Shown here in pieces: positions 1 through 10,689 of a stretch of 10,689 nt of DNA. Under the pieces are notes generated by a model. It was not told the DNA's origin. It worked only from the letters and a program-made list of their open reading frames with translations, and made no database searches. Both the position numbers and the translations under genes were made by a program. This DNA comes from a virus: the UHGV virus genome UHGV-0361391; one strand, given 5' to 3'. Numbering within the stretch: position 1 is the stretch's first letter; every line of letters begins with the position of its first letter.

Positions 1-141
1 TCTGATGATATTTTTCCCTGAAGGCTGCCGGGGAGATATTCCCCAGACGAGAGTGACGACGCTGACGATTGTAGAAAATCTCAATGTATTCCCGTATTAC
101 TGAGATGGCTTCATCCCGGTTATTAAAACGATAGTGGCTCA
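1..141 (-). mobile_element. IS3-family insertion sequence fragment: 3' part of transposase orfB (C-terminal region, continues past window start), separated from the rest of the gene by the inserted element
   Basis: Minus-strand translation of 141->1 reads SHYRFNNRDEAISVIREYIEIFYNRQRRHSRLGNISPAAFREKYHQ, matching the conserved C-terminal region of IS3-family (IS150-like) transposases (YIEIFYNRQRRHS...SP..F). It is in frame with the fragment at 10549-10689 once the insert is removed. Confidence 0.8.
138..141. repeat. Left copy of CTCA direct repeat flanking the inserted element (putative target-site duplication; 5 bp CTCAT/CTCAG if one mismatch is allowed)
   Basis: CTCA at 138-141 and again at 10549-10552, immediately outside the inferred element termini. 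In the IS reading frame both copies sit in the same codon phase (cTG AGt / aTG AGc). Confidence 0.5.
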
Positions 142-330
142 TGTAACCAGGTGAATCATTTGATACCGACAAGGGTTTTAGTGAAAGGAGGTGAAATCAC
201 CTGTAAGATGCTGAAATAAAACAGGTGATGTATACTTCGGACGGAAAACTCTTTTTGATACCGACTGCTCAACAAATAGTCAAAAGATCAAAAAACGGCG
301 ACACATTTGATACTGCTAATTTACCCTTAA
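142..330. repeat. Left end (attL-like) with three putative transposase-binding repeats
   Basis: TTTGATACCGAC at 159-170 and 254-265, TTTGATACTGCT at 306-317; these lie 17, 112 and 164 bp from the inferred terminus, resembling the Mu L1/L2/L3 layout. The same motif occurs in inverted orientation at the right end. Confidence 0.6.
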
Positions 331-497
331 AATCTTCTTCAAAACATCTTCAAACTGCCAAAATGCTCACATAATCGATCTAACTATAATCAGTATGATA
401 ATCATCATGAATTACTATTCAATAGCGTGATTATCTTGGGATGAGTCATATGATCTCTATATGTATTTACAGCACCACCTCATGATAGCGATGGCGC

Positions 498-1109
498 TTA
501 ACCAACAACATTTTTCTTTACTGTCACTGCCCCTGATTCCTGGGTGGCGTTATTGCTCGAGTTGTACTTCTCAATAACGCGCAAAATCTCTTTGTCTGTT
601 TCTTCACTTCCCGCCATTCCTATCTTTATTGCATTTTTTAGTACGGGACGTAATGGCAAGGCATCAATGATGCTTTCTACCGCATCCTGGCTGATTGTAG
701 ATGTATTCATTGCTGCCAGCCTGACAAGGTTGTTAGTACCTTCTCGCCTGATGAATGTAAGGATTAATTGCTTCTCTTGGGGGCTTAGAGAGCTAAGCGC
801 CTGATCAATACCCGAACCTGAATCGCAATTTTTTTCGATTTTTCCGCATTCATCTTCGTTCTTGCCTGTGGCCAACCATTCGAGTGAACAATTACAGGCT
901 TTAGCTATTAAGGCCAGTTTATCCAAAGGAGGGAAGTTTTTCCCCTTCCTGTAATTTCTTACTGTGGCTTCAGATAGTCCACAAAGGGTCGCCAGTTCGA
1001 CGTTTGTCATGTTTCCCATAGCCATAGCTAAGCGTTCTGAAAATCGGTTTATTCCTTCCATATCAATAAACCGTTCCGCACTGGATACGGTTTTTTCTGC
1101 CTTATCCAT
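498..1109 (-). CDS. XRE-family helix-turn-helix transcriptional repressor (prophage immunity repressor candidate, Mu c position)
   Basis: 203-aa ORF with an N-terminal HTH_XRE-like segment (NMTNVELATLCGLSEATVRNYRKGKNFPPLDKLALIAKACNCSLEWL). It is transcribed toward the left end, divergent from ner, as Mu c is. RBS AGGGGG lies 4 nt upstream of the ATG. Confidence 0.8.
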   Translation of the reverse strand: MDKAEKTVSSAERFIDMEGINRFSERLAMAMGNMTNVELATLCGLSEATVRNYRKGKNFPPLDKLALIAKACNCSLEWLATGKNEDECGKIEKNCDSGSGIDQALSSLSPQEKQLILTFIRREGTNNLVRLAAMNTSTISQDAVESIIDALPLRPVLKNAIKIGMAGSEETDKEILRVIEKYNSSNNATQESGAVTVKKNVVG

Positions 1110-1265
1110 ATAACCCCCTATAAAACAAAGAAATTATCGACATCGCATTTAATTTCGATATGCTCGCAAAAAACCGTTGATATCGAATTATTTTGCGATT
1201 ATGATTTACCTAAATCGATAACCGGTTTTGATTATCGGTTCAGGTAAACATGAGAGGATCACACA
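1110..1265. promoter_or_regulatory. Divergent early control region between repressor and ner with repeated TATCGA/TCGATA operator-like half-sites
   Basis: Half-sites TATCGA (1135-1140), TCGATA (1155-1160), TATCGA (1182-1187), TCGATA (1215-1220) and TTATCGG (1232-1238) form dyads in the 156-bp intergenic region. The position corresponds to the Mu operator/enhancer region. Confidence 0.45.
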
Positions 1266-1532
1266 ATGAGGGTATCCAGACAAGCATCGAATAATTTGTT
1301 TGTTCGAGAGGGGTGTGACTGGTCTGCTAAAGCGGTATATGCAGCCCTTGAAAACAAAGGCACAGACCTCCCTGAACTGGAAAGGGAGTTAGGATTAAAA
1401 AGCGGATCAATGCGCAATGTGTTTTACCGCCAGTGCCGTAAATACGAAGCCGCCATCGCCGAAAAAATAGGGGTTGAACCTGCTGTAATCTGGCCCAGCA
1501 GATACCAGGTGGACGCCAGAGAAGTGGCTTGA
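1266..1532 (+). CDS. ner: Ner-like DNA-binding protein (Mu Ner / Nlp family)
   Basis: 88-aa ORF containing the conserved VIWPSRYQ motif shared by Mu Ner and E. coli Nlp. It is the first rightward gene after the repressor, with a GAGAGG RBS upstream. Confidence 0.85.
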   Translation: MRVSRQASNNLFVREGCDWSAKAVYAALENKGTDLPELERELGLKSGSMRNVFYRQCRKYEAAIAEKIGVEPAVIWPSRYQVDAREVA

Positions 1533-1542
1533 TGGGGGATGT

Positions 1543-2967
1543 ATGTGGGTAACAGCAAAAGAATGTGTTGGTCTTCCTGATTTACCAATGATGGAACATA
1601 ACATTCGCCATCGACTCACAAAAGCAGCTGCGGGAAATGCAGCCATGTTACGCAAACGTAAGGGGACAAAAGCAATCGAATTTAATATCGATTGTTTGCC
1701 TTCTGGCGCGCAACAAGTATTGCGTGAACGTTATGCCCTTCAACTGATGACGCAAAAAGCTGATGAATCACCGGCTCCGGTGGTGACAAAGGCCAGACGC
1801 TCATCTGCCGTGGTTGATGCGGTGGAGGCATATCGCGGATCACCACAACTGATGCTCGAACGCCTCAATGCCCTGACTGAAAACCAGCGCCAGGTGGCTG
1901 ATGCACGAATCGCGATCGTCAGCGAAGTTCTGAAAGTCGCGCAACAACCTGGTTTCAGCTGTGCGAAGGCTATCCGGTTTATCGTTGACAACCTGGCACG
2001 TTCGCAACTGAACGAGCGCATTGTGGCAATGGTTGAGACGGCGAACGCCAAAAAGGGAAACAGCCGTGCGTTGAGTGAAATCACGCTGAAACGCTGGATT
2101 GCAGCCTTTAACAAGGCGCAGAACGCCGCTGAACGCCTGCTTTTGCTGGCACCTGGTAAGCGCCAGGAAATAAAAGCCGAAGATATTAACTGGCTGCCCG
2201 AATTTCTGGCGCAGTATCGCCAGTCAAACGGCCGACCAATGACCGAGGCTTACGAGGATTTTGTCGCTGAATGGCAGTACCGGCACGCTGATGAGCCTTA
2301 TATGCTCGATATCATGCCGTCTTATGACACCATTCGCCGCGCAATGAAGAAACTGCCGGAAGTGGTGAAACAAAAAGGCCGGGTGACCGGCAGTGAATAC
2401 CGCCAGCTTGAGGGATTCACGCGCCGCGACTGGTCCAGAATGCCGGTGAATTATGTCTGGATTGGTGGCTCCGGGGATGCACAGATGGTCAGCAATATGT
2501 TTGTGGCAAAAACCGGCTCTGTCGGTGCACAGGCGGATTACAGTGGCCCGGCCTGGTATCTGCTCGACTGCTCCCGCGCGGTAAAACCGCTGATTTACCA
2601 GGATCGCCGCAAGGCCGAACTGGTTGCCCAGACAAAAGTCGATGAAGGCCGTGCGTTTACTGATAACGAGTTTGTGTTCGGTGCTTCCGCCCGTCGCAAT
2701 GTGGGCTACGGCTTCTGGCAGATGGCCTACATGATGCAGTCACCGCTGACGCTGGATGCGCTGTGGCACGGCTGGTCAGCCATGCGTGACTTTAAGGCTG
2801 ACGGTGGCCGCAAACTCGGCATCAAACCCACCCATATTGTTGTCCCCACTTCGCTGGAAAAACAGGCGGTGCAGCTGCTGGAGCGCGAGCTGTTCGCGGA
2901 CGGTAACGCCACAGTCTCTAACGAGATGAAGGGCAAGCTGGAGCTGGTTGTCGCGGATTATCTGTAA
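1543..2967 (+). CDS. Chimeric ORF: Mu transposase A-like N-terminal DNA-binding region (about aa 1-310) fused in frame to a Mu gpT-like major head subunit C-terminal region; transposase catalytic core absent
   Basis: The N-terminus MWVTAKECVGLPDLP...GTKAIEFNIDCLP parallels MuA MELWVSPKECANLPGLP...GKAIEYNANSLP (domain I-alpha), and similarity continues to about NYVWIGGSGD (compare MuA QWINGDGY around D269). The remainder (WYLLDCSRAVKPLIYQ...RRNVGYGFWQMAYMM...IVVPTSLEKQAVQLL) does not resemble the MuA core and sits immediately upstream of the DUF1320 gene, where Mu encodes T. Confidence 0.6.
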   Translation: MWVTAKECVGLPDLPMMEHNIRHRLTKAAAGNAAMLRKRKGTKAIEFNIDCLPSGAQQVLRERYALQLMTQKADESPAPVVTKARRSSAVVDAVEAYRGSPQLMLERLNALTENQRQVADARIAIVSEVLKVAQQPGFSCAKAIRFIVDNLARSQLNERIVAMVETANAKKGNSRALSEITLKRWIAAFNKAQNAAERLLLLAPGKRQEIKAEDINWLPEFLAQYRQSNGRPMTEAYEDFVAEWQYRHADEPYMLDIMPSYDTIRRAMKKLPEVVKQKGRVTGSEYRQLEGFTRRDWSRMPVNYVWIGGSGDAQMVSNMFVAKTGSVGAQADYSGPAWYLLDCSRAVKPLIYQDRRKAELVAQTKVDEGRAFTDNEFVFGASARRNVGYGFWQMAYMMQSPLTLDALWHGWSAMRDFKADGGRKLGIKPTHIVVPTSLEKQAVQLLERELFADGNATVSNEMKGKLELVVADYL

Positions 2968-3010
2968 ACGGTGAGCCGGGCTTACGGCCCGGCCCCTGCG
3001 GAGGGCAAAT

Positions 3011-3370
3011 ATGAATGAACATCACACTGTGGCAGCAACAGATGATTCAGGCCTTCAGGTCAGTGGTGACAGTCCTGTCACGGTACTGGCAGAAGTGCGT
3101 TGCAGTCGTACGCATTTTCGTCGTGCGGGGTTCCTGTTCATGCGGGGACGCCAGCAGGTTGACGTCACCCCGGAGCAGCTTGCCCGACTGGAAGCGGAGC
3201 CATGCCTCACTGTACGAATACTACAGACGCCTGGTGATGATGCGGGAGCCGTGGCGGGTGTGGTTCATGCAGAGACCGGTGCAGATTTAGCCGAAGCCGA
3301 AACCGTACAGGATGCTCCCCGGAAAAAGACCGGCAATAACGCCAGACAGGCGAAAAAGGCGCGCGCATGA
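3011..3370 (+). CDS. Hypothetical small Mu-like head-region protein (position of Mu gp35)
   Basis: 119-aa ORF with GGAGGG RBS, translationally coupled (ATGA overlap) to the downstream DUF1320 gene. Assignment is by position only. Confidence 0.5.
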   Translation: MNEHHTVAATDDSGLQVSGDSPVTVLAEVRCSRTHFRRAGFLFMRGRQQVDVTPEQLARLEAEPCLTVRILQTPGDDAGAVAGVVHAETGADLAEAETVQDAPRKKTGNNARQAKKARA

Positions 3371-3786
3371 ATTACGCCACCGAAACCGATATGCGGGCAC
3401 GTTACCGCGAGGATTTGCTCAGGCCATTACTGGCCGTGCCCCGTTCGGATGAACCGGACACGCGCAAGCTGAACCGGGCACTGACGGACGCGTCTGCCCT
3501 TATCGACAGCTATCTGTCTTCCCGTTACACGCTGCCGCTGGCGGTGGTTCCGGCAGTTCTTGTTCAGCACTGCTGCACGATTGCCTTTTATTACCTGTGC
3601 GATCAGCGGGCATCCGATCAGGCGCGTGACCGTTACCGTGAGGCGCTGGCATGGCTGAAAGATGTCATGAACGGTAACGTGCCGGTCGGCGTGGATACCG
3701 ACGGTGCGGCCCCTGAATCCGGGGACTTACCGCAGGTACAGTCTGATGTGGCGGTGTTCGGGCGCAACCAGAAGGGCTTTATATGA
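3367..3786 (+). CDS. DUF1320-family phage protein (Mu gp36-like)
   Basis: 139-aa ORF with the typical DUF1320 pattern (N-terminal M.Y.T..DM.ARY, central LPL..VP..L, C-terminal ..GF) and typical size. Start overlaps the upstream stop. Confidence 0.75.
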   Translation: MNYATETDMRARYREDLLRPLLAVPRSDEPDTRKLNRALTDASALIDSYLSSRYTLPLAVVPAVLVQHCCTIAFYYLCDQRASDQARDRYREALAWLKDVMNGNVPVGVDTDGAAPESGDLPQVQSDVAVFGRNQKGFI

Positions 3787-4347
3787 TTACGGAAACCGAA
3801 CAGGCATATATCACCCGTATTCGTGAGTATTTCGGGAATGAACTGGTGTCTGTTGACACACATCCCGGCGACTGGAGCGACAGCGTGCTGCGCACCATGC
3901 TGATTAACGCCCCGGCTATCCTGGACGGGTAAACAGCTGCTTGCCGAGCGTTTCCCTGACACGTCGCGCCTGCTGCTGGAAGACTGGGAGCGTTATCTCG
4001 GGCTTCCCGAGTGTGATATGGCCGGAGCCACCCTCACGGAGCGACAGCGTTATGCCGGCAATAAATACCGGATGAAGCCCTCGCTGAACCGTGAATTTTA
4101 TATCCGGTTTGCGGCGGAGTTTGGTTATCAGATTGACATTCAGCCCTCACCGGATTCGCAGTGGGTCAGTATTGTCACGATTAACAGTGAAACCGGCTAC
4201 CGGAATATGAATGTGCTGGATGATATTCTCACGCCGCTGCGTATTTATGAAGGCAGTGCGCTGGAATGTATTCTGAACCGTTATAAGCCTGCATGGCAGA
4301 CGTTTATTTACGTTTATGCAAACAGCCATGAAGAGGAGACTATTTAA
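3783..4347 (+). pseudogene. DUF2313-family phage tail protein (Mu gp48-like), disrupted by a +1 frameshift near 3928-3930
   Basis: Frame 0 gives MITETEQ...INAPAILDG then a stop at 3930-3932; frame +1, open from 3904, continues KQLLAERFPDTSRLLLEDWERYLGLPE... to 4347 and carries the conserved DUF2313 FPDT...L..WER.LGLP motif. Removing one G from the GGG run would give a single ~188-aa protein. Confidence 0.65.
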
Positions 4348-5258
4348 TGTTTCATGTTGATAATAATTCCGGCGTGGCGAATATGCCTGCGCTGGCACCG
4401 GCGCAGAGTAATACCACCACCTGGTTTACCGAAGGTGACGGACAAAAAGGTATCAGCTGGATTGGTCAGGACTGGCTGAATATTCTCCAGGCCGAACTGC
4501 TGAATATTCTGGCTGAAGCCAGTATTCAGCCGGATAAGGCGCAGTTAAACCAGCTTACGCTGTCCATTAAAGCCATTATCGCTGCGAATGCCTTTTCCCG
4601 GAAAAATAACCTGAAAGAAATTGCTGATGCCGGTGCGGAGGCCCAGCGTCTGGCCCGTGGTTATCTTGGTCTGGGGACGCTTGCCACAAAAAACAGTCTT
4701 GGTCCCGGTGACGTTAATGCCCTGGCGAAGGATCAGAATCTCGCCGACCTGGAGAATAAGGGAACCGCCCGTAATAATCTGGATGTTTACAGCAAAAGCG
4801 AAGGTGATAACCGTTACCTGCGCAGGGAGCAGAACGGCGCAGACATTCCGGATAAAGGGGCTTTTATCGATAACGTCGGTTTACGGGAAACGGTGAATAA
4901 GGCGGCGAATGCTCTGCCATCGGACGGCACCGCCGTTGCCGCGAATAAACTCTCCACCCCAAGAAATATTAATGGCGTTCCTTTTGACGGGACGCAGGAC
5001 ATATACATTACCTCCGGTATGACTGAAGCTACTGCTGATAACAAATACGTTAGCAACGTTCAGCTTGGTGCCCAGAGTTACCATTCACCCGGAGGTAATG
5101 AAATGTCCTGGAGTTATGGTGCACCTTCTGGTTGTATGCTTTCAGGTATTAACGTGCAGGATACCGGGAAAAGTTCAGCCGATAATATCGGAGGCGTTTA
5201 TTACCGTCCGGTGCAGATATATATCGGTAATGCCTGGCGCACAGTTTCATCCGTCTGA
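4347..5258 (+). CDS. Phage tail fibre protein (Mu S / Stf-like)
   Basis: 303-aa ORF with the conserved tail-fibre N-terminus MFHVDNNSGVANMP...WLN.LQAE shared by Mu S and E. coli Stf proteins. GAGGAG RBS; TAATG overlap with the upstream DUF2313 gene. Confidence 0.85.
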   Translation: MFHVDNNSGVANMPALAPAQSNTTTWFTEGDGQKGISWIGQDWLNILQAELLNILAEASIQPDKAQLNQLTLSIKAIIAANAFSRKNNLKEIADAGAEAQRLARGYLGLGTLATKNSLGPGDVNALAKDQNLADLENKGTARNNLDVYSKSEGDNRYLRREQNGADIPDKGAFIDNVGLRETVNKAANALPSDGTAVAANKLSTPRNINGVPFDGTQDIYITSGMTEATADNKYVSNVQLGAQSYHSPGGNEMSWSYGAPSGCMLSGINVQDTGKSSADNIGGVYYRPVQIYIGNAWRTVSSV

Positions 5259-5266
5259 TTAAAGGA

Positions 5267-5289
5267 AAAGGGTGCGATAAGCACCCTTT
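5267..5289. terminator. Perfect hairpin between convergent tail fibre and tail-fibre assembly genes (likely bidirectional terminator)
   Basis: AAAGGGTGC-gataa-GCACCCTTT: 9-bp perfect stem with a 5-nt loop, flanked by A/T-rich sequence on both sides, between the stop at 5256-5258 and the minus-strand stop at 5293-5295. Confidence 0.55.
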
Positions 5290-5292
5290 ATG

Positions 5293-5865
5293 TTATTCAG
5301 GCTTCTCCGGCCATTTAATGGCGTCAAATTCAGCTTTGTTTTTAATCGCTGGTAGTTCCATTTTTTTCACCTGACTGATGTATTTCATCCATCGTGTAAG
5401 CGCAGCTCTGTTTTCATCACTAATCGTGCCCAGCTGTAACTCAGTTCTCCAGTCATTAATCTTTTCATATGCCTGATTAAGATATGACTGGCGCAGTGCT
5501 TCCGCTTTTTTGGTATAGTTAACCGGGAGTTGTGAGATGACACCATTATCAAACTTCCAGTTACCTGAAATATCAGTACCTTCAGGTAATTCGTCTGTCT
5601 CAACAACGGAAAAACCCGCAGGATACAGCGCCGAAGCATCCTGTGATATTGAGCAGATAACACCGCTGTCAGGGGTTATGCAAAGTTTATATTTTTTGGT
5701 GAATAATGGCAGGGACTCATAGAAATCCTTACCATCTTCACTTTGAAAATACTGTACATCATTACCAAAGGGTTTTTGTTCCGGGTAATATCGTTTAACA
5801 TTAATCAGTTGCATAAACATCACCATGTAAATCAATGATAAAAACAGGAATAATAATATCGCCAT
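5293..5865 (-). CDS. Tail fibre assembly protein (Tfa / Mu U-like); true start probably the internal ATG near 5814
   Basis: Conserved Tfa features: DASALYPAGFSVVE, ISDENRAALTRWMKYISQV, C-terminal WPEKPE. The first 17 residues of the longest ORF are hydrophobic and likely not translated; MQLINVKRYY looks like the real N-terminus. Confidence 0.85.
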   Translation of the reverse strand: MAILLFLFLSLIYMVMFMQLINVKRYYPEQKPFGNDVQYFQSEDGKDFYESLPLFTKKYKLCITPDSGVICSISQDASALYPAGFSVVETDELPEGTDISGNWKFDNGVISQLPVNYTKKAEALRQSYLNQAYEKINDWRTELQLGTISDENRAALTRWMKYISQVKKMELPAIKNKAEFDAIKWPEKPE

Positions 5866-6118
5866 ATACAGGCAAGGGGTTTCTGAAATAACGCATATTT
5901 TCAGATGCTGACCGCAGCGTCATGAATCGTTAAATCAATTATAAGCCGGTAATATGCGGTTATCGTATTGGCCTGTCCATCCTTTGTCGTTATGTTCCTG
6001 CCTAACCGGCTCCGTCACAAAAAGTACCGTGATGCTTTTTTTGAATTTCCGCAAAACACATATTTATCAGCGGTTGTTATTCTGACTCTGTTTAATTCAG
6101 AAACAGGCAGAAAAGACG

Positions 6119-8173
6119 ATGTCAGACTCCAAGTGGAAAATGCTCTCCGCCATGCCCGGAGAGTTTTCAGTCAAGGTTGCCGGTGGCACGGTGGCATTTA
6201 TTGAAAGCCCTTTCCGCCCTTCGGGTAATAAAGGGGGGATCACCTTCGCAGACTGCGTGATCCGCTTCAGCACGAAAGAGCCATTATGGGTAATGCCGGT
6301 ATCCGGTAATCCCAGTGCAGAAATCACCAGTTCAGGCGTGACTGGCATCATTCCAATCACATCTGACGTGGCCGGAACGCTCACGCCCTCCGACTGGAAT
6401 GCACCGGATAACGCCGGGCCTTCCGGTAGCACGAATGGCAGCAGTTCAGAGCCGGAATATTACTTTGTTGTCATTCTCGCGGGTCAGTCAAATGGCATGG
6501 CCTACGGCGAGGGGCTGCCGTTACCGGATTCGTTTGACCGCCCGGACCCACGCATTAAGCAACTGGCACGCCGCAGTACGGTAACGCCCAACGGTACGTC
6601 GTGTACATACAACGACATCATTCCGGCAGACCACTGCCTGCATGATGTTCAGGATATGAGCGGGATAAACCACCCGAAAGCTGATCTGGCAAAAGGCCAG
6701 TACGGGACTGTCGGTCAGGGGTTGCATATTGCCAAAAAACTGCTTCCCTATATCCCACAGAATGCGGGGATACTTCTGGTGCCCTGTTGTCGTGGCGGGT
6801 CAGCATTCACCACTGGAGCCGACGGCTCATTCAGTGAGGCCAGCGGTGCTTCCGCTGATTCTTCACGCTGGGGGGCCGGTAAACCTCTGTATCAGGACCT
6901 GGTAAGCCGCACCAAAGTCGCGCTGGCGAAAAACCCGAAAAACAAACTTCTGGCTGTGGTCTGGATGCAGGGAGAGGCAGACCTTGCCTCAGGAAGCCAG
7001 CAGCATAATAGTTTATTCACGGCCATGGTTCAGCAGTTCAGAACTGACCTGGCTCCGCTTGCTGCGCAGTGCGTGAGTGGAAATGCCACCACGGTGCCGT
7101 GGATTTGCGGTGATACCACGTATTACTGGAAAAACGCTGGCACCGATAAATATGAGGCAGTATACGGTGGCTACAAAGGCAAGGAAGCACAGAAAATTTT
7201 CTTTGTACCGTTCCTGACGGATGAGAATGGACAGAGCACGCCAACGAATGCTCCGGCGGAAGACCCGGATATTGTGGCTGTCGGGTATTACGGTGCAGCA
7301 TCCCGAACCCAGGGCAGTTTTGTTTCGACACAGCGTGACAGCCATTTCAGCTCATGGGCACGCAGGGGCGTCATTTCAGACCGTCTGGCCTCAGCTATTA
7401 TGCTCCATGCAGGGCGCACGGCTGAACTGATGCGCGGGCAGACCGTGACACCACCGGATGAGAAGCCGTCACCTGATACACCATCAAAACCGTCCACGCC
7501 ACCCGCAGACACCACGACGATGAGTACGCTATTTGCTTACCGGGCATCTGAGTCTGAAGGACGGTTGACACCACAGGGTTGGGCTGCCGGAGGTGGCAAG
7601 GCTCAAATCGTGGATGATGCCGGAGCCAGCGGGGGTAAGGCAATGAAACTGACCAAGGAAACAGGAAGAGCCCCCTGGTACCTTGAGCATGATGCTGGTA
7701 ATGGTGCGGACCTGCTGGGTAAAGGTGGTCTTGTCAGTTGTCGTTTTAAACTCGATGGCGCGCTTACGGCTAATCAGTACGCACTGGCGCTGTACTGGCC
7801 GGTTTCTGCCCTGCCGCAAGGGGTTACTCTGGAAGGAAATGCCGGTCATAACCTGCTGGCATCGTTCTACGTACAGAGCGATGCCACAGACCTTAACGTG
7901 ATGTATCACAAAGGAAACACGGCGCAGAACACGAAGCTGGGGTCATTCGGCGCATTTAATAACGAATGGCATACGCTGGGCTTCCGTTTTGCCGGTAACA
8001 ACAGTATTGAGGTGACGCCGGTCATTGATGGTAAGGACGGGACACCATTCATGCTGTCGCAGTCTCCGGTCGGCACGTTTACGGCAGACAAGTTGCGCGT
8101 GACCGATATCACTAAAAATGCGACTTACCCGGTACTGATTGACAGTATCGTGGTGGAAGTGAATAACGCGTAA
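6119..8173 (+). CDS. SASA-family carbohydrate esterase (sialate O-acetylesterase-like, NanS-p-like) with Pro/Thr/Ser-rich linker and C-terminal lectin-like beta-sandwich domain
   Basis: 684-aa ORF. The central region carries the SASA/SGNH-type GQSNG motif (FVVILAGQSNGMAYGEG) and a later VVWMQGEAD block. A linker PPDEKPSPDTPSKPSTPPADTTT precedes a ~190-aa C-terminal domain with lectin/LamG-like character. The gene lies downstream of the tail fibre module, as prophage nanS-p genes do. Confidence 0.75.
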   Translation: MSDSKWKMLSAMPGEFSVKVAGGTVAFIESPFRPSGNKGGITFADCVIRFSTKEPLWVMPVSGNPSAEITSSGVTGIIPITSDVAGTLTPSDWNAPDNAGPSGSTNGSSSEPEYYFVVILAGQSNGMAYGEGLPLPDSFDRPDPRIKQLARRSTVTPNGTSCTYNDIIPADHCLHDVQDMSGINHPKADLAKGQYGTVGQGLHIAKKLLPYIPQNAGILLVPCCRGGSAFTTGADGSFSEASGASADSSRWGAGKPLYQDLVSRTKVALAKNPKNKLLAVVWMQGEADLASGSQQHNSLFTAMVQQFRTDLAPLAAQCVSGNATTVPWICGDTTYYWKNAGTDKYEAVYGGYKGKEAQKIFFVPFLTDENGQSTPTNAPAEDPDIVAVGYYGAASRTQGSFVSTQRDSHFSSWARRGVISDRLASAIMLHAGRTAELMRGQTVTPPDEKPSPDTPSKPSTPPADTTTMSTLFAYRASESEGRLTPQGWAAGGGKAQIVDDAGASGGKAMKLTKETGRAPWYLEHDAGNGADLLGKGGLVSCRFKLDGALTANQYALALYWPVSALPQGVTLEGNAGHNLLASFYVQSDATDLNVMYHKGNTAQNTKLGSFGAFNNEWHTLGFRFAGNNSIEVTPVIDGKDGTPFMLSQSPVGTFTADKLRVTDITKNATYPVLIDSIVVEVNNA

Positions 8174-8180
8174 GCAGGAT

Positions 8181-8223
8181 AAAAAAATCCCGCCGGTCAA
8201 AGAGCCATTTGTTGACTGGCGGG
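8181..8223 (-). terminator. Hairpin with adjacent A7/T7 tract, oriented as an intrinsic terminator for leftward transcription
   Basis: CCCGCCGGTCAA (8189-8200) pairs with TTGACTGGCGGG (8212-8223), 12 bp with one G-U pair. AAAAAAA at 8181-8187 gives a U-tract only on the minus-strand transcript. Confidence 0.4.
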
Positions 8224-8338
8224 TGATATTCCAAACCCATTAAGGAAAGCTACAACCTCTGACAAAGAAGACCATTATGTACGCGGTTACTTTTTAGCTG
8301 AAAACTGTTTCTGTAGTCAATATCAAAGGTAAGGTTAT

Positions 8339-8521
8339 ATGACATTTGTTCATACGATGCTGCTTTATTTCTGCACTGTGGTCAGTGCGTTATATCTGGT
8401 GAGCGGTGGTTATAAGGCCATCAGAAATTATGTTCGCCGCAAAATTGATGACGCAGCAGCTGAAAAGCTCAGTAAAACAGCGCAGGCAACTCCGCTCCCA
8501 AAAGACCCGACCCAGCCCTGA
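8339..8521 (+). CDS. Hypothetical small membrane protein (single predicted TM helix)
   Basis: 60-aa ORF with an AAGG RBS; hydrophobic N-terminal segment FVHTMLLYFCTVVSALYLVSGGY followed by a charged tail. Lies in an AT-rich islet. Confidence 0.4.
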   Translation: MTFVHTMLLYFCTVVSALYLVSGGYKAIRNYVRRKIDDAAAEKLSKTAQATPLPKDPTQP

Positions 8522-8556
8522 TTGCAGGGCTGTATTCCCACATAAGGAGGATATAC

Positions 8557-8811
8557 ATGCCAGAGATTAAAGGCACCGTCACTGAAGTCCTGGTAAAACA
8601 GGCACTGTATTCCGGTGAAGTAAATAAATTACTGAAAGCGCAGGTCCGCAAGGATTTTGAGGCACAAATCGACACTTACGTTGATGAAGTGCTGGCAAAA
8701 CTTATTGGGCCAGCAGTTGCGGCCAGTGATGCTGATAATGAGCCGAAAACCGACGCGCAGCCAGAGCAACCAGACCCGGCTCAGCCCGGAACTGACAGTA
8801 CCATGATGTAA
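8557..8811 (+). CDS. Hypothetical protein (helical N-terminus, acidic proline-rich C-terminus)
   Basis: 84-aa ORF preceded by a strong AAGGAGG RBS with 7-nt spacing, followed by a hairpin (AAACCGG...CCGGTTT, 8818-8843). Confidence 0.5.
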   Translation: MPEIKGTVTEVLVKQALYSGEVNKLLKAQVRKDFEAQIDTYVDEVLAKLIGPAVAASDADNEPKTDAQPEQPDPAQPGTDSTMM

Positions 8812-8978
8812 CAATACAAACCGGTGGTGTCCTCTGCCGGTTTGACACTAATGAAAACATCTTTGCCGCTATCCAGCCATATGTAATCGCTGGATAGTAT
8901 TTCGTATTCAGAAATATAGCTGCTTATGGAGCAGTCAATCCTGCTTCCCCATCCGGGCAGGCAAATGAACCGGTATCA

Positions 8979-9272
8979 TTAGTCCGATTCACGCTTTTGT
9001 AGAATCGTTCCCAGAATGCTATACAGCTCATTAGCCTGTTGCTCCATCATTGAGACGGAGGCTATACGGTGCAAAGTGATTTCAGGAGGTGGCACACCTC
9101 CATCTTCTTGCTGTGGAGGAAAAACATAAGATTTAATAAAAAAGTTGAAGCATATGAACTCTCCCGCACTCGAACTGTATTTGCAGGCATCTGAATAATC
9201 GGAAAAATAATCATTATAGATTTCCGCATTTTCAATCATTTTTCGATTTCTCGTCGTTACATGATTGTCCAT
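8979..9272 (-). CDS. Hypothetical protein, unknown function
   Basis: 97-aa minus-strand ORF with an AGAGG RBS 5 nt upstream of the ATG; AT-rich codon usage differs from the surrounding phage genes; divergent from com-mom. Confidence 0.45.
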   Translation of the reverse strand: MDNHVTTRNRKMIENAEIYNDYFSDYSDACKYSSSAGEFICFNFFIKSYVFPPQQEDGGVPPPEITLHRIASVSMMEQQANELYSILGTILQKRESD

Positions 9273-9460
9273 AGCAGCCTCTTACGCTGGCAATTAACCA
9301 ATTGACTTCTATAAATTAGTTGATTTGTTTGCTTTGCGGTATTCAAATGTACAATCATTCAGCACTTATGCGTTACAGCACCGTTTAAAATTAGTGATCA
9401 AACTCATAAATTTTCGCTAATGACATTTCGTGTTATTTGTTGTATCAATTAAATAAATCA

Positions 9461-9485
9461 AATCGATCGTTTTTGTCGATCGATT
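9461..9485. promoter_or_regulatory. Perfect palindrome with two GATC (Dam) sites upstream of com-mom; candidate methylation-sensitive regulatory site
   Basis: AATCGATCG-tttttgt-CGATCGATT (9-bp arms, 7-bp spacer) with GATC at 9465-9468 and 9478-9481, in the AT-rich intergenic region about 45-70 bp upstream of the com start. Phage Mu mom is controlled through clustered GATC sites upstream of its promoter. Confidence 0.45.
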
Positions 9486-9528
9486 GAGTGATAAAGATAT
9501 CAACAACAAAGCAGGAGGTTATGCGGCC

Positions 9529-9729
9529 ATGTATCGAAACATACGGTGCCGACATTGTAACAAGCTACTGGCACGAGCCAGCTTCAGTTATCTGGAAGTC
9601 AAATGTCCGCGCTGTAAAACCCTCAATCAAATCACATCTCAGAGCGCCACAGAGCACCCCACATACACAAGGAAATCCTGTCGTGGGGAACAGAAAGCAA
9701 GTTACATCCCGTATCATCAGCACGCCTGA
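9529..9729 (+). CDS. com: Com-like zinc-finger translational regulator of mom
   Basis: [34 protein letters not shown]... parallels Mu Com MKSIRCKNCNKLLFKADSFDHIEIRCPRCK with the same C-x2-C...C-x2-C spacing. AGGAGG lies 10 nt upstream of this ATG. It overlaps the 5' end of the mom-like ORF as in Mu. Confidence 0.75.
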
Positions 9730-10420
9730 ACTTATTCACTATAACGACAATATCGTCGGTTATGGCTCCCGTGAGTTACGGGTTGAGACAATAAGTTGCT
9801 GGCTGGCCCGGCTGGTCGTCGTCAATAAACATTACAGCCATCGTTTCGTAAATAATTCCTACCTTCATCTGGGCATATTTTCAGAACGGGAGCTGGTTGG
9901 CGTAATGCAATGGGGTTATGCCCTTAATCCAAACAATGGTGCACGCGTCGTAACTGGCACGCAGAACCGCGAATATATGGAGCTTAACCGGTTATGGCTG
10001 CATGACTGTATGCCGAGAAACTCCGAATCAAGGGCAATCAGTTACGCGCTCAAACTAATCAGACAACTTTATCCGCAGGTGCAGTGGGTTCAGTCGTTTG
10101 CAGATGAGCGTTGTGGCTGTCTTGGTGTCGTGTACCAGGCAAGCAATTTTGATTATGTAGGCAGTCATGAAACAACATTCTATGAACTTGATGGCGAGTG
10201 GTATCACGAGATTTGCAAGAATGCAATCAAACGAGGAGGACAGCGAGGTGAACATCTGCGGGCTAATATCGACAGAGCCAGTGTTCATAAATTCCGTCAG
10301 TTTCGTTACATCCGGTTTCTGGACAAGAGAGCCAGAAAACGCCTTAACACAAAGCTATTCAAAGTCCAGCCTTACCCAAAACCACAAACAGTTAAAACTG
10401 GTTTGAAAGAGAGTGAATGA
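9683..10420 (+). CDS. mom: Mom-like DNA modification protein; start uncertain (candidate GTG at 9683, alternative ATG at 9905)
   Basis: Long ORF in the +1 frame relative to com and overlapping its 3' end, at the extreme right end of the element. Size from the GTG (245 aa) is close to Mu Mom (231 aa). AAGGA lies 9 nt upstream of the GTG. Confidence 0.6.
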
Positions 10421-10548
10421 ACGCTTAAAAACTCATTCTAAAACTCAAAAGAAAAGCGCCGATTTAGTATCAAATAAGTTGCGTATCGGCGTTTTTCAGC
10501 GGTATCAAATGAAATGCAAATCGGTATCAAAAAAATCGCCGCGCTATA
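10421..10548. repeat. Right end (attR-like) with three putative transposase-binding repeats in inverted orientation
   Basis: GTATCAAA cores at 10467-10474, 10502-10509 and 10524-10531 (reverse complements TTTGATACTAA, TTTGATACCGCT, TTTGATACCGAT). The innermost-to-terminus spacing (17 bp) equals that at the left end, and the sites are closely packed as Mu R1-R3 are. Confidence 0.6.
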
Positions 10549-10552
10549 CTCA
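10549..10552. repeat. Right copy of CTCA direct repeat flanking the inserted element (putative target-site duplication)
   Basis: Identical to 138-141 and in the same codon phase of the interrupted IS transposase. Confidence 0.5.
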
Positions 10553-10689
10553 GGCTCTCATTTTTCAGCGTTCCCCAGAAGCTTTCCATCGGAGCGTTGT
10601 CGTAACAGTTACCTTTACGCGACATTGATGTTTTCAGACCAAACTGCTCCTGTATGACCCGGTAATCGTATGCGCAGTACTGTGAACCT
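10549..10689 (-). mobile_element. IS3-family insertion sequence fragment: internal part of transposase orfB (DDE domain region), truncated by the insertion; gene continues past window end
   Basis: Minus-strand translation of 10688->10549 reads GSQYCAYDYRVIQEQFGLKTSMSRKGNCYDNAPMESFWGTLKNESLS, the conserved IS3-family catalytic-domain block (SMSRKGNC.DNAPMESFFGTLK). The frame then runs into element sequence and stops. Confidence 0.8.

What the first reader, a model, noticed from the sequence alone, without database searches (positions are those of the whole stretch)
1..10689. A Mu-like element nested inside an IS3-family transposase gene, with the frame restored on excision
The minus-strand ORF fragments at 10549-10689 (...PMESFWGTLKNESLS) and 1-141 (SHYRFNNRDEA...) are consecutive parts of one IS3-family transposase. 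They are separated by 10,407 bp, and the CTCA copies at both junctions sit in the same codon phase, so deleting the insert plus one repeat copy rebuilds an uninterrupted orfB. This fixes the element boundaries to within a base or two and shows the Mu-like element transposed into a resident IS copy. The perfect repeat is 4 bp, whereas Mu-type transposition gives 5 bp; CTCAT versus CTCAG would be 5 bp with one mismatch.
Basis: partly seen in the sequence, partly recalled or inferred. Interest (0 to 1): 0.75.

Follow-up and report, generated by a model that had tools for sequence, protein, structure and literature searches.

The report
Decayed Mu-like prophage inside IS600
A heavily deleted, immobile remnant of a known E. 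coli Mu-like (Sp18-type) transposable phage sits inside a copy of the insertion sequence IS600, which is real and precisely mapped but an ordinary case of one mobile element landing in another.

Summary
Window 1-141 and 10549-10689 are adjacent parts of IS600 orfB. Removing 142-10548 plus one CTCA gives 278 bp that are 100% identical to IS600. The same chromosomal IS600 copy, without the insert, is present in 336 complete E. coli genomes.

The insert is not a whole phage. It is 10,407 bp of a roughly 38.4-kb Sp18-like transposable prophage. Two internal deletions (about 18.05 and 9.96 kb, at short microhomologies) removed the transposase catalytic core, the B ATPase, and the early, lysis and most head and tail genes. 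What remains is both ends with their repeated putative transposase-binding sites, the repressor, a Ner-like regulator, a tail-fibre module, a NanS-p-like esterase and com/mom.

Eight independent insertions all have perfect 4-bp duplications and TG...TA ends, and one GenBank record already annotates the 4 bp. The family's transposase is only 24% identical to MuA.

"Frame restored on excision" is true arithmetically but has no known biological route, because the element has no transposase and Mu-type elements do not excise as part of their cycle. This is an ordinary nested insertion and a new member of a known kind.

The parts
1..141 (-). IS600 (IS3 family) orfB, distal fragment on the IRR side; encodes SHYRFNNRDEA...REKYHQ
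   Evidence: Translation. 100% identical to IS600 when joined to the other flank. In contig L005 the IS600 end, TGAGGTGTACTGG..., lies about 54 bp left of window position 1.
138..141 (.). Left copy of the 4-bp target-site duplication CTCA (canonical IS600 nt 1070-1073, TGAG on the IS600 coding strand)
   Evidence: The empty site reads GTGGCTCAGGCTCTC.
142..10548 (+). Defective, internally deleted Sp18-like (Mu-like) transposable prophage, 10,407 bp, TGTAACC...GCGCTATA
   Evidence: It corresponds to positions 627-2952, 21000-22452 and 32405-39036 of the 38,410-bp prophage in the flgK gene of E. coli JE86-ST02, at 99.9%, 97.4% and 99.9% identity.
159..315 (+). Left-end array of three TTTGATACYR repeats (159-168, 254-263, 306-315), putative transposase-binding sites L1, L2 and L3
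   Evidence: 10 matches in the window against 2.35 expected. The six perfect matches are all within 175 bp of an end and point inward.
498..1109 (-). Immunity repressor (203 aa, CI-type HTH), full length
   Evidence: Pfam Phage_CI_repr and HTH_3. phrog_3037 transcriptional repressor, 7e-59. Not homologous to Mu c.
1266..1532 (+). Ner-like early regulator (88 aa)
   Evidence: Pfam HTH_35, 1.7e-20. Same position as Mu ner.
1543..2967 (+). In-frame fusion ORF (474 aa): the first ~307 aa of transposase A joined to the C-terminal ~167 aa of major head protein gpT. The join replaces the first catalytic Asp of the DDE triad, and the other two catalytic residues lie in the deleted part.
   Evidence: Pfam HTH_Tnp_Mu_1 (aa 6-143) and Mu-like_gpT (aa 324-474). 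The junction reads WIG|GSGD where the parent reads WIGDGHG, which aligns with MuA WINGDGY.
2463..2467 (.). Deletion junction 1 (about 18.05 kb missing: rest of A, B, early region, lysis, and head genes up to mid-T), at a 3-5 bp microhomology
3011..3786 (+). Two head-completion genes: an HI1506/FluMu_N-like gene (3011-3370) and a Mu gp36-like gene (3367-3786)
   Evidence: Pfam.
3783..3932 (+). Truncated gp37-like ORF (49 aa) that runs across deletion junction 2
   Evidence: Pfam Phage_Mu_Gp37 on record. Junction mapped.
3917..3920 (.). Deletion junction 2 (about 9.96 kb missing: tail sheath, tube, tape measure and baseplate genes), at the 4-bp microhomology TATC
4018..5865 (.). Tail-fibre module: C-terminal fragment of a gp48/YmfQ-like protein (4018-4347 +), tail fibre (4347-5258 +), tail-fibre assembly protein (5293-5865 -)
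   Evidence: Pfam Phage_Mu_Gp48 (below cut-off) and Caudo_TAP. phrog_1833 tail fiber, 1e-161.
6119..8173 (+). Cargo gene: 684-aa carbohydrate esterase (SASA + DUF6645), with the architecture of prophage NanS-p sialate O-acetylesterases
   Evidence: Pfam SASA 1.5e-13 and DUF6645 7e-68. phrog_143. Same length as WP_001284083.1 of the full-length prophage in a region 99.9% identical at the DNA level. NanS-p background: PMC10462455.
8339..9272 (.). Small ORFs: DUF1378 (8339-8521 +), DUF826 (8557-8811 +), and an unassigned 97-aa ORF (8979-9272 -)
   Evidence: The 97-aa ORF has no family hit.
9529..10420 (+). com (9529-9729) and mom (9683-10420), the DNA-modification module at the right end
   Evidence: Pfam Mom, 1.6e-77. 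Coordinates mapped from the RefSeq annotation of L001.
10465..10531 (-). Right-end array of three TTTGATACYR repeats (10522-10531, 10500-10509, 10465-10474), putative R1, R2 and R3, closely spaced as in Mu
10549..10552 (.). Right copy of the 4-bp target-site duplication CTCA
10549..10689 (-). IS600 orfB, upstream fragment; encodes ...NAPMESFWGTLKNESL

Best explanation
A full-length Sp18-like transposable phage of about 38 kb integrated into an E. coli chromosome. This family is Mu-like in organisation, with an A transposase only 24% identical to MuA and a B ATPase 48% identical to MuB. Integration was by DDE transposition and landed at nt 1070-1073 of an IS600 copy that was already resident next to an anaerobic C4-dicarboxylate transporter gene. 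The staggered cut was 4 bp, giving the CTCA duplication; 4 bp is this family's normal footprint.

The prophage then decayed where it sat. Two illegitimate (microhomology) deletions of about 18.05 and 9.96 kb removed the transposase catalytic core, B, and the early, lysis, head and tail genes. What is left is a 10,407-bp grounded remnant with intact ends, repressor, Ner, a tail-fibre module, a NanS-p-like esterase and com/mom.

Shown here: the identity of both elements, the exact boundaries, the 4-bp duplication, the empty site, and the two deletion junctions. Inferred: the order of events (insertion first, deletions later), and that the remnant is now immobile unless a related helper supplies A and B.
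For: - The IS600 flanks are adjacent: translation and joined frame; 278 bp, 100% identical to IS600.
- The empty site exists at the same chromosomal locus: gapless, 99.95%; 336 genomes.
- The element matches three collinear blocks of a 38,410-bp prophage bounded by the same termini.
- The deletion junctions show microhomology, and the A catalytic core is lost.
- The repeat arrays at the ends are laid out as in Mu (L1 ... L2 L3, and R1 R2 R3).
- Eight independent insertions show a 4-bp duplication: IS600 CTCA, flgK ATCA, ypdB ACTG, cho AGAG, bglJ GTAC, sorM TAAA (Sakai Sp18), yghD CGGG, and an Stx2c phage CATC. The depositors of LC727881.1 annotated the 4-bp duplication themselves.
- Every public contig that carries either deletion junction is collinear with the window, and wherever the ends are visible the element sits in IS600.
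- Sp18-like phages are reported to insert frequently into other mobile elements: PMC10132054.
Against: - The order of events is not proven. No intermediate was found at this site, neither a full-length prophage nor one with a single deletion.
- The middle block (2463-3920) is only 97.4% identical to the reference prophage, against 99.9% for the outer blocks. The true parent is therefore a mosaic that was not recovered, and the exact microhomology at junction 1 is uncertain.
- None of the 5,426 complete E. coli genomes searched contains the occupied site, so the host lineage could only be seen in short metagenome and sequencing-run contigs.
Confidence: 0.88

Rival explanations
1. The element was already a deleted, non-autonomous 'mini-Mu' when it entered IS600. 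A full-length Sp18-like helper phage in the same cell supplied A and B in trans and mobilised it.
For: Both ends and all six end repeats are intact. That is all a mini-Mu needs in laboratory systems (established knowledge of mini-Mu). E. coli genomes often carry several Sp18-like copies; DLI.5a, for example, has two deleted derivatives. Strains with 1-3 Mu-like phages per genome are reported in PMC10132054.
Against: All roughly 20 contigs carrying the diagnostic deletion junctions are collinear with the window. Those that reach the ends are all in the same IS600 site, and no second location was found. The other deleted derivatives seen (ypdB, cho, bglJ) each have their own different deletions, as expected for decay in place.
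Confidence: 0.1
2. The true duplication is 5 bp, as for Mu (CTCAG), and the left copy has mutated to CTCAT. Equivalently, the element boundary is one base off.
For: Mu itself makes 5-bp duplications (established knowledge; Mu target consensus cited in PMC5977238). CTCAG happens to fit Mu's N-Y-S-R-N preference.
Against: The T at 142 and the A at 10548 are constant parts of the element at eight different insertion sites, while the neighbouring host bases vary. In none of the eight can the repeat be extended to 5 bp in either direction. The empty site accounts for exactly 10,407 + 4 bp. GenBank LC727881.1 annotates 4 bp.
Confidence: 0.01
3. The junctions are an assembly chimera, or arose by homologous recombination between separate IS600 copies rather than by transposition.
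For: IS600 is multicopy (up to 43 places per genome), and short-read assemblies break in it (L006 ends 30 bp into IS600 on each side).
Against: The same two junctions are seen in independent samples and assemblers (ENA and Logan). The flanks are the two halves of a single IS600 position with a 4-bp direct repeat, and they match an empty site exactly. Recombination between IS copies would not produce that pattern.
Confidence: 0.01

Closest known systems
Prophage Sp18 of E. coli O157:H7 Sakai and its relatives (Sp18-like 'Mu-like phages' of STEC and other E. coli)
   Same: Identical termini (TGTAACCAGGTGAATCATTTGATACC... and ...GCGCTATA). 4-bp duplication (TAAA in sorM). Same gene order: repressor, ner, A, B ... 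tail fibre, esterase, com/mom. 97-99.9% DNA identity to full-length members.
   Different: The window element is 10.4 kb instead of about 38-40 kb. It lacks a functional A and has no B or early, lysis, head and tail genes. It also lacks the invertase carried by Sp18 and some other members (PMC2669165), as does the JE86-ST02 reference.
Mu_JNE082796 inserted in an Stx2c phage (GenBank LC727881.1)
   Same: An Sp18-like phage nested inside another mobile element. The depositors annotated a 4-bp duplication, and the termini are the same.
   Different: That one is full length (39,968 bp), only about 82% identical in the right-hand region, and its host element is a lambdoid prophage rather than an IS.
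Bacteriophage Mu (Muvirus mu)
   Same: Transposable-phage organisation. The end repeats are laid out the same way (one terminal repeat and two further in on the left; three close together on the right). Ner, the A (DDE) and B (AAA+) pair, gpT/gp36/gp37/gp48 morphogenesis genes, and com/mom at the right end are shared.
   Different: No nucleotide similarity (Mu is absent from the hits). A is only 24% identical. The repressor is unrelated. The right terminus is TA-3' rather than CA-3'. The duplication is 4 bp rather than 5 bp.
Other naturally deleted Sp18-like remnants in E. coli (ypdB, cho and bglJ loci)
   Same: Both ends retained, along with the repressor, ner and the right-end cargo (esterase, DUF1378, DUF826, com/mom). 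Lengths are 10.0-19.4 kb, each with a 4-bp duplication.
   Different: The deletion end points and insertion sites differ. The cho copy has IS1A at its deletion point.
Laboratory mini-Mu elements
   Same: Both ends present and transposition functions missing, so in principle the element could be complemented in trans.
   Different: No evidence that this element has ever moved as a mini element.

Membership tests
IS600 (IS3 family) - the flanks | Nucleotide identity to IS600, and contiguity of the two fragments in the reference | tested here: met
   The joined 278 bp are 100% identical over their full length to elements annotated 'IS3-like element IS600 family transposase'. They map to a 1,264-bp IS600 with TGAGGT...ACCTCA ends.
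IS600 (IS3 family) - the flanks | A complete IS with both inverted repeats and an intact orfAB | not testable with these tools
   The window shows only 141 bp on each side. In contig L005 the IRR-side end is present, but the contig stops 148 bp beyond the window on the other side. At the same locus other genomes have either an intact IS600 or an 826-bp remnant cut by IS1F.
Sp18-like transposable (Mu-like) prophage | Family-specific termini, with inward-pointing repeated putative transposase-binding sites at both ends | tested here: met
   Termini identical to eight other insertions. Three TTTGATACYR sites at each end.
Sp18-like transposable (Mu-like) prophage | Short target-site duplication, with a matching empty site | tested here: met
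   CTCA on both sides. The empty site was recovered. The family norm is 4 bp in 8 of 8 insertions.
Sp18-like transposable (Mu-like) prophage | Functional DDE transposase A and AAA+ target-selection protein B | tested here: not met
   A is cut at the first catalytic Asp and fused to gpT. B is absent. The element is therefore a defective derivative, not an autonomous member.
Sp18-like transposable (Mu-like) prophage | High nucleotide identity and collinearity with full-length members | tested here: met
   99.9%, 97.4% and 99.9% identity in three collinear blocks.
Bacteriophage Mu proper (Muvirus mu) | 5-bp target duplication | tested here: not met
   4 bp here and in seven other insertions of the family.
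Bacteriophage Mu proper (Muvirus mu) | 5'-TG...CA-3' termini | tested here: not met
   The left end is TG and the right end is ...TATA-3'. Mu has TG at both ends when each is read inward.
Bacteriophage Mu proper (Muvirus mu) | Close relationship of A and the repressor to MuA and Mu c | tested here: not met
   A is 24% identical over 429 aa, with no phmmer hit to MuA chains in the PDB. The repressor shows no similarity. B is 48% identical.
Non-autonomous mini-Mu mobilised in trans | The same deleted element at more than one site | tested here: not met
   All contigs with the diagnostic junctions are collinear with the window, and those that reach the ends are all in the same IS600 site.

The most novel reading that the evidence does not exclude
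The 10.4-kb remnant might not be mere debris but a maintained, non-autonomous 'natural mini-Mu'. On this reading its intact ends let Sp18-like helper phages mobilise it. Its repressor, and the in-frame fusion protein that keeps only the DNA-binding part of A, would protect the host against related transposable phages. Its right-end cargo (NanS-p-like esterase, Mom) would be kept by selection. That could explain why several independent remnants of about 10 kb in E. coli (ypdB, cho, and this one) retain the same end modules.
Probability: 0.08. Interest if true: 0.45.

Novelty: new member of a known kind. Interest (0 to 1): 0.2.

Why it matters
It matters mainly for annotation. The locus gives base-exact boundaries for an Sp18-type prophage remnant. 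It also documents that this widespread E. coli family of transposable phages leaves 4-bp duplications, not 5-bp, and has a TA-3' right terminus. Annotators and prophage-finding tools that assume Mu rules would misplace the ends by a base; the Sakai Sp18 feature itself is offset. Beyond that, it is one more example of mobile elements nesting in each other and of prophage decay that keeps the immunity and cargo genes. It opens no new mechanism.

Tried and rejected
- A 5-bp duplication with one mismatch, or boundaries shifted by one base. Rejected by the survey of eight insertions and by the arithmetic of the empty site.
- Shigella as the source (my first guess, because IS600 is abundant there). 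The chromosomal flank in L005 is 99.9% identical to E. coli genomes such as B-1109. The occupied site is absent from all 5,426 complete E. coli genomes, from the plasmid collection and from the phage collection.
- A search for intermediates (one deletion only) or other locations of the deleted element, using exact look-ups of the two junction-spanning ORFs. Only collinear copies were found.
- A literature search for a stated duplication length for Sp18-like or SfMu phages. Nothing was found in the text of PMC4406740, PMC2669165, PMC7430833, PMC10132054, PMC6379469 or PMC5977238. The only explicit record is the feature annotation in GenBank LC727881.1.
- Rfam and tRNA scans of the window found nothing.
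- The similar sizes of three remnants (10.0-10.5 kb). I do not read anything into this. The way search hits are joined into one 'place' favours elements about the size of the query, so there is ascertainment bias.
Full report
**1. Checking the observation**

The window ends were read and translated in all minus-strand frames.
- 10549-10689 encodes ...RKGNCYDNAPMESFWGTLKNESL.
- 1-141 encodes SHYRFNNRDEAISVIREYIEIFYNRQRRHSRLGNISPAAFREKYHQ.
- CTCA lies at 138-141 and again at 10549-10552.
- Deleting 142-10552, or equivalently 138-10548 (10,411 bp, which is the insert plus one repeat), produces a single open frame...NESLSHYRF....
- The 278-bp joined sequence is 100% identical over its full length to elements annotated as IS600 (IS3 family) in E. 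coli. There are 3,473 records with at least 80% coverage and 3,001 at 99% identity or better.
- Mapped on a complete 1,264-bp IS600 (L015 1247-2510, ends TGAGGT...ACCTCA), the duplicated bases are canonical nt 1070-1073, which is 195 bp from the IRR end.

**2. Empty site and independent copies of the occupied site**

An exact look-up of the unusual 474-aa ORF at 1543-2967 found 15 public contigs.
- Contig L005 (ENA ERZ15803907, 16.5 kb) contains the whole window at 99.98% identity, plus 5.7 kb of chromosomal flank carrying hypT, an Asp/Glu racemase gene and an anaerobic C4-dicarboxylate transporter gene.
- That flank is 99.9% identical to E. coli chromosomes such as B-1109.
- L005 with the 10,411 bp removed aligns to B-1109 without a single gap across the junction (217-6152, 99.95%).
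- An 852-bp reconstruction of the empty site is found at 80% coverage or more in 336 complete E. coli genomes, and the ten listed hits are full length at 99.9%.

The IS600 copy is therefore old and resident at this locus, and the Mu-like element is the newcomer. In some of these genomes the IS600 is annotated as intact. In B-1109 only 826 bp on the IRR side remain, and the rest is replaced by IS1F. The window and L005 do not reach far enough to show which state applies here. None of the 5,426 complete E. coli genomes has the occupied site.

**3. What the insert is**

The insert starts TGTAACCAGGTGAATCATTTGATACC and ends GCGCTATA. These same termini bound a 38,410-bp prophage that interrupts flgK in E. 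coli JE86-ST02.

The window element corresponds to three collinear blocks of that prophage:

| Window | Reference prophage | Identity |
|---|---|---|
| 142-2467 | 627-2952 | 99.9% |
| 2463-3920 | 21000-22452 | 97.4% |
| 3917-10548 | 32405-39036 | 99.9% |

Two internal deletions separate these blocks.
- Deletion 1, about 18.05 kb, has a junction at 2463-2467 with 3-5 bp of microhomology.
- Deletion 2, about 9.96 kb, has a junction at 3917-3920 with the microhomology TATC.

Deletion 1 cuts the transposase gene exactly at the motif WIG|DGHG. That motif aligns with MuA WINGDGY, which contains the first catalytic Asp, D269 (the D269 numbering is from memory). The cut fuses the DNA-binding N-terminus of A in frame to the C-terminal half of the major head protein gpT (Pfam HTH_Tnp_Mu_1 and Mu-like_gpT). 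The rest of the catalytic core lies in the deleted part.

Genes removed are the rest of A, B, the early region, the lysis genes and nearly all head and tail genes.

Genes retained:
- a CI-type repressor (498-1109, minus strand);
- a Ner-like regulator (1266-1532);
- HI1506-like and gp36-like head genes, and a truncated gp37;
- a fragment of gp48/YmfQ, a tail fibre and a tail-fibre assembly protein;
- a 684-aa SASA + DUF6645 esterase;
- DUF1378, DUF826 and an unassigned 97-aa ORF;
- com and mom.

Each end carries three inward-pointing TTTGATACYR repeats, at 159, 254 and 306 on the plus strand and at 10531, 10509 and 10474 on the minus strand. The window has 10 matches against 2.35 expected. The layout is the same as in Mu: one terminal site and two distant sites on the left, and three adjacent sites on the right.

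**4. The 4-bp question**

I collected further independent insertions of the same family and compared their flanks.

| Insertion site | Strain or record | Duplication |
|---|---|---|
| IS600 | this window | CTCA |
| flgK | JE86-ST02 | ATCA |
| ypdB | DLI.5a and AST46 | ACTG |
| cho | HCP4S3_I4 | AGAG |
| bglJ | DLI.5a | GTAC |
| sorM | Sakai Sp18 | TAAA |
| yghD | AST198 | CGGG |
| Stx2c phage | LC727881.1 | CATC |

All eight are perfect 4-bp repeats. In none does the repeat extend to 5 bp in either direction. The T at the left end and the A at the right end are invariant parts of the element. The depositors of LC727881.1 annotated the 4-bp stretches as 'duplication due to insertion of Mu_JNE082796'.

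So 4 bp is the family's footprint, and the '5 bp with one mismatch' alternative is rejected. This fits the transposase.
- The family's A protein (680 aa) is only 24% identical to MuA over 429 aa.
- It gives no phmmer hit to the MuA structures in the PDB; the weak hits are to retroviral integrases.
- In Pfam it matches only Mu-transpos_C above the cut-off.
- B, by contrast, is 48% identical to MuB, and the repressor is unrelated to Mu c.
- The right terminus is TA-3'. Mu has the canonical TG at both ends when each end is read inward.

**5. Mechanism and order of events**

The best-supported account has three steps.
1. A full-length Sp18-like phage integrated by A/B-dependent transposition into the IS600 copy with a 4-bp stagger.
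2. Two microhomology deletions followed.
3. The result is a grounded remnant.

The first step is well supported by the termini, the duplication and the empty site. The order of steps 1 and 2 is inferred.
- Exact look-ups of both junction-spanning ORFs found about 20 contigs. All are collinear with the window, and all that reach the ends are in this IS600 site. The element is therefore seen at one place only.
- Other E. coli remnants of this family have their own different deletions: ypdB 10,460 bp, cho 10,012 bp with IS1A at the deletion point, and bglJ 19,373 bp.
- Mobilisation of an already deleted mini element by a helper cannot be excluded, but nothing supports it.

'Frame restored on excision' is arithmetically true. 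It has no known biological route here, because the element encodes no transposase and Mu-type elements do not excise as part of their life cycle (established knowledge of Mu).

**6. Comparison with what is known, and novelty**

Sp18-like Mu-like phages are well known in STEC and other E. coli. They are described as inserting at variable sites, often into other mobile elements: 6 of 10 in PMC10132054. See also PMC2669165 and PMC7430833. Prophage decay that retains immunity and cargo genes is also well known (PMC6379469).

This locus is a new instance, with a particular deletion pattern at a new site, of a known kind. The one mildly useful general point is that the family makes 4-bp duplications and has a TA-3' right end. 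I did not find this stated in the papers I searched, but it is already implicit in a GenBank annotation.

Interest is low (0.2).

Noticed in passing
window 142-143 and 10547-10548; L013/L014 (Sakai), L025/L026 (LC727881.1): All Sp18-like prophages examined end in ...GCGCTATA-3', that is TA rather than the CA-3' terminus that Mu has at both ends, and all make 4-bp duplications. The Sakai RefSeq feature 'prophage Sp18' (5040971-5079729) is offset from these ends: it starts 1 bp inside the left end and runs 5 bp past the right end.
   Followed up: yes
window 6119-8173 (+): A 684-aa SASA + DUF6645 carbohydrate esterase, with the domain architecture of the NanS-p sialate O-acetylesterases of Stx phages (PMC10462455). 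It is carried as cargo near the right end of this Mu-like family and is retained in three of the four deleted derivatives examined; in the cho copy it is annotated as frameshifted. Orthology and activity were not tested.
   Followed up: partly
L002/L003 (ypdB, 10,460/10,481 bp), L004 (cho, 10,012 bp, IS1A at the deletion point), L011 (bglJ, 19,373 bp): Other E. coli genomes carry independently deleted Sp18-like remnants that keep both ends, the repressor, ner and the right-end cargo. Three of the four known remnants, including the window, are close to 10 kb. This may simply reflect how search hits are joined into one place.
   Followed up: partly
window 1543-2967 (+): Deletion 1 happens to be in frame. 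It creates a 474-aa ORF that joins the DNA-binding N-terminal 307 aa of the transposase to the C-terminal 167 aa of the major head protein. Whether it is expressed, or acts as a transposition inhibitor, is unknown.
   Followed up: partly
window 2463-3920: The middle retained block is only 97.4% identical to the JE86-ST02 prophage, whereas the flanking blocks are 99.9% identical. The parent phage was therefore a mosaic with a different head-module allele.
   Followed up: no
L010 8500-9995 (E. coli B-1109): At the empty site in B-1109 the IS600 copy is itself only an 826-bp remnant, truncated by an IS1F element. In other genomes (5CRE51, EC2 and others) the same copy is annotated as intact. The locus is a small pile-up of IS elements next to IS200/IS605 and IS21 fragments.
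   Followed up: partly
L012 (E. coli O157:H7 NE 1092-2, 2931762-2970000): This otherwise full-length Sp18-like prophage lacks mom and the right terminus. The sequence runs from com directly into ycjN, so the right end has been deleted or rearranged.
   Followed up: no
L001 20860-20939 and L012 18061-18140: RefSeq annotates a 'tRNA-OTHER' of 80 nt between the head morphogenesis genes of full-length Sp18-like prophages. This region is deleted in the window, and ARAGORN finds no tRNA in the window.
   Followed up: no
window 8979-9272 (-): A 97-aa ORF on the minus strand between DUF826 and com has no Pfam or PHROG match. A shorter, 86-aa hypothetical protein is annotated at the corresponding place in the full-length prophages.
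   Followed up: no
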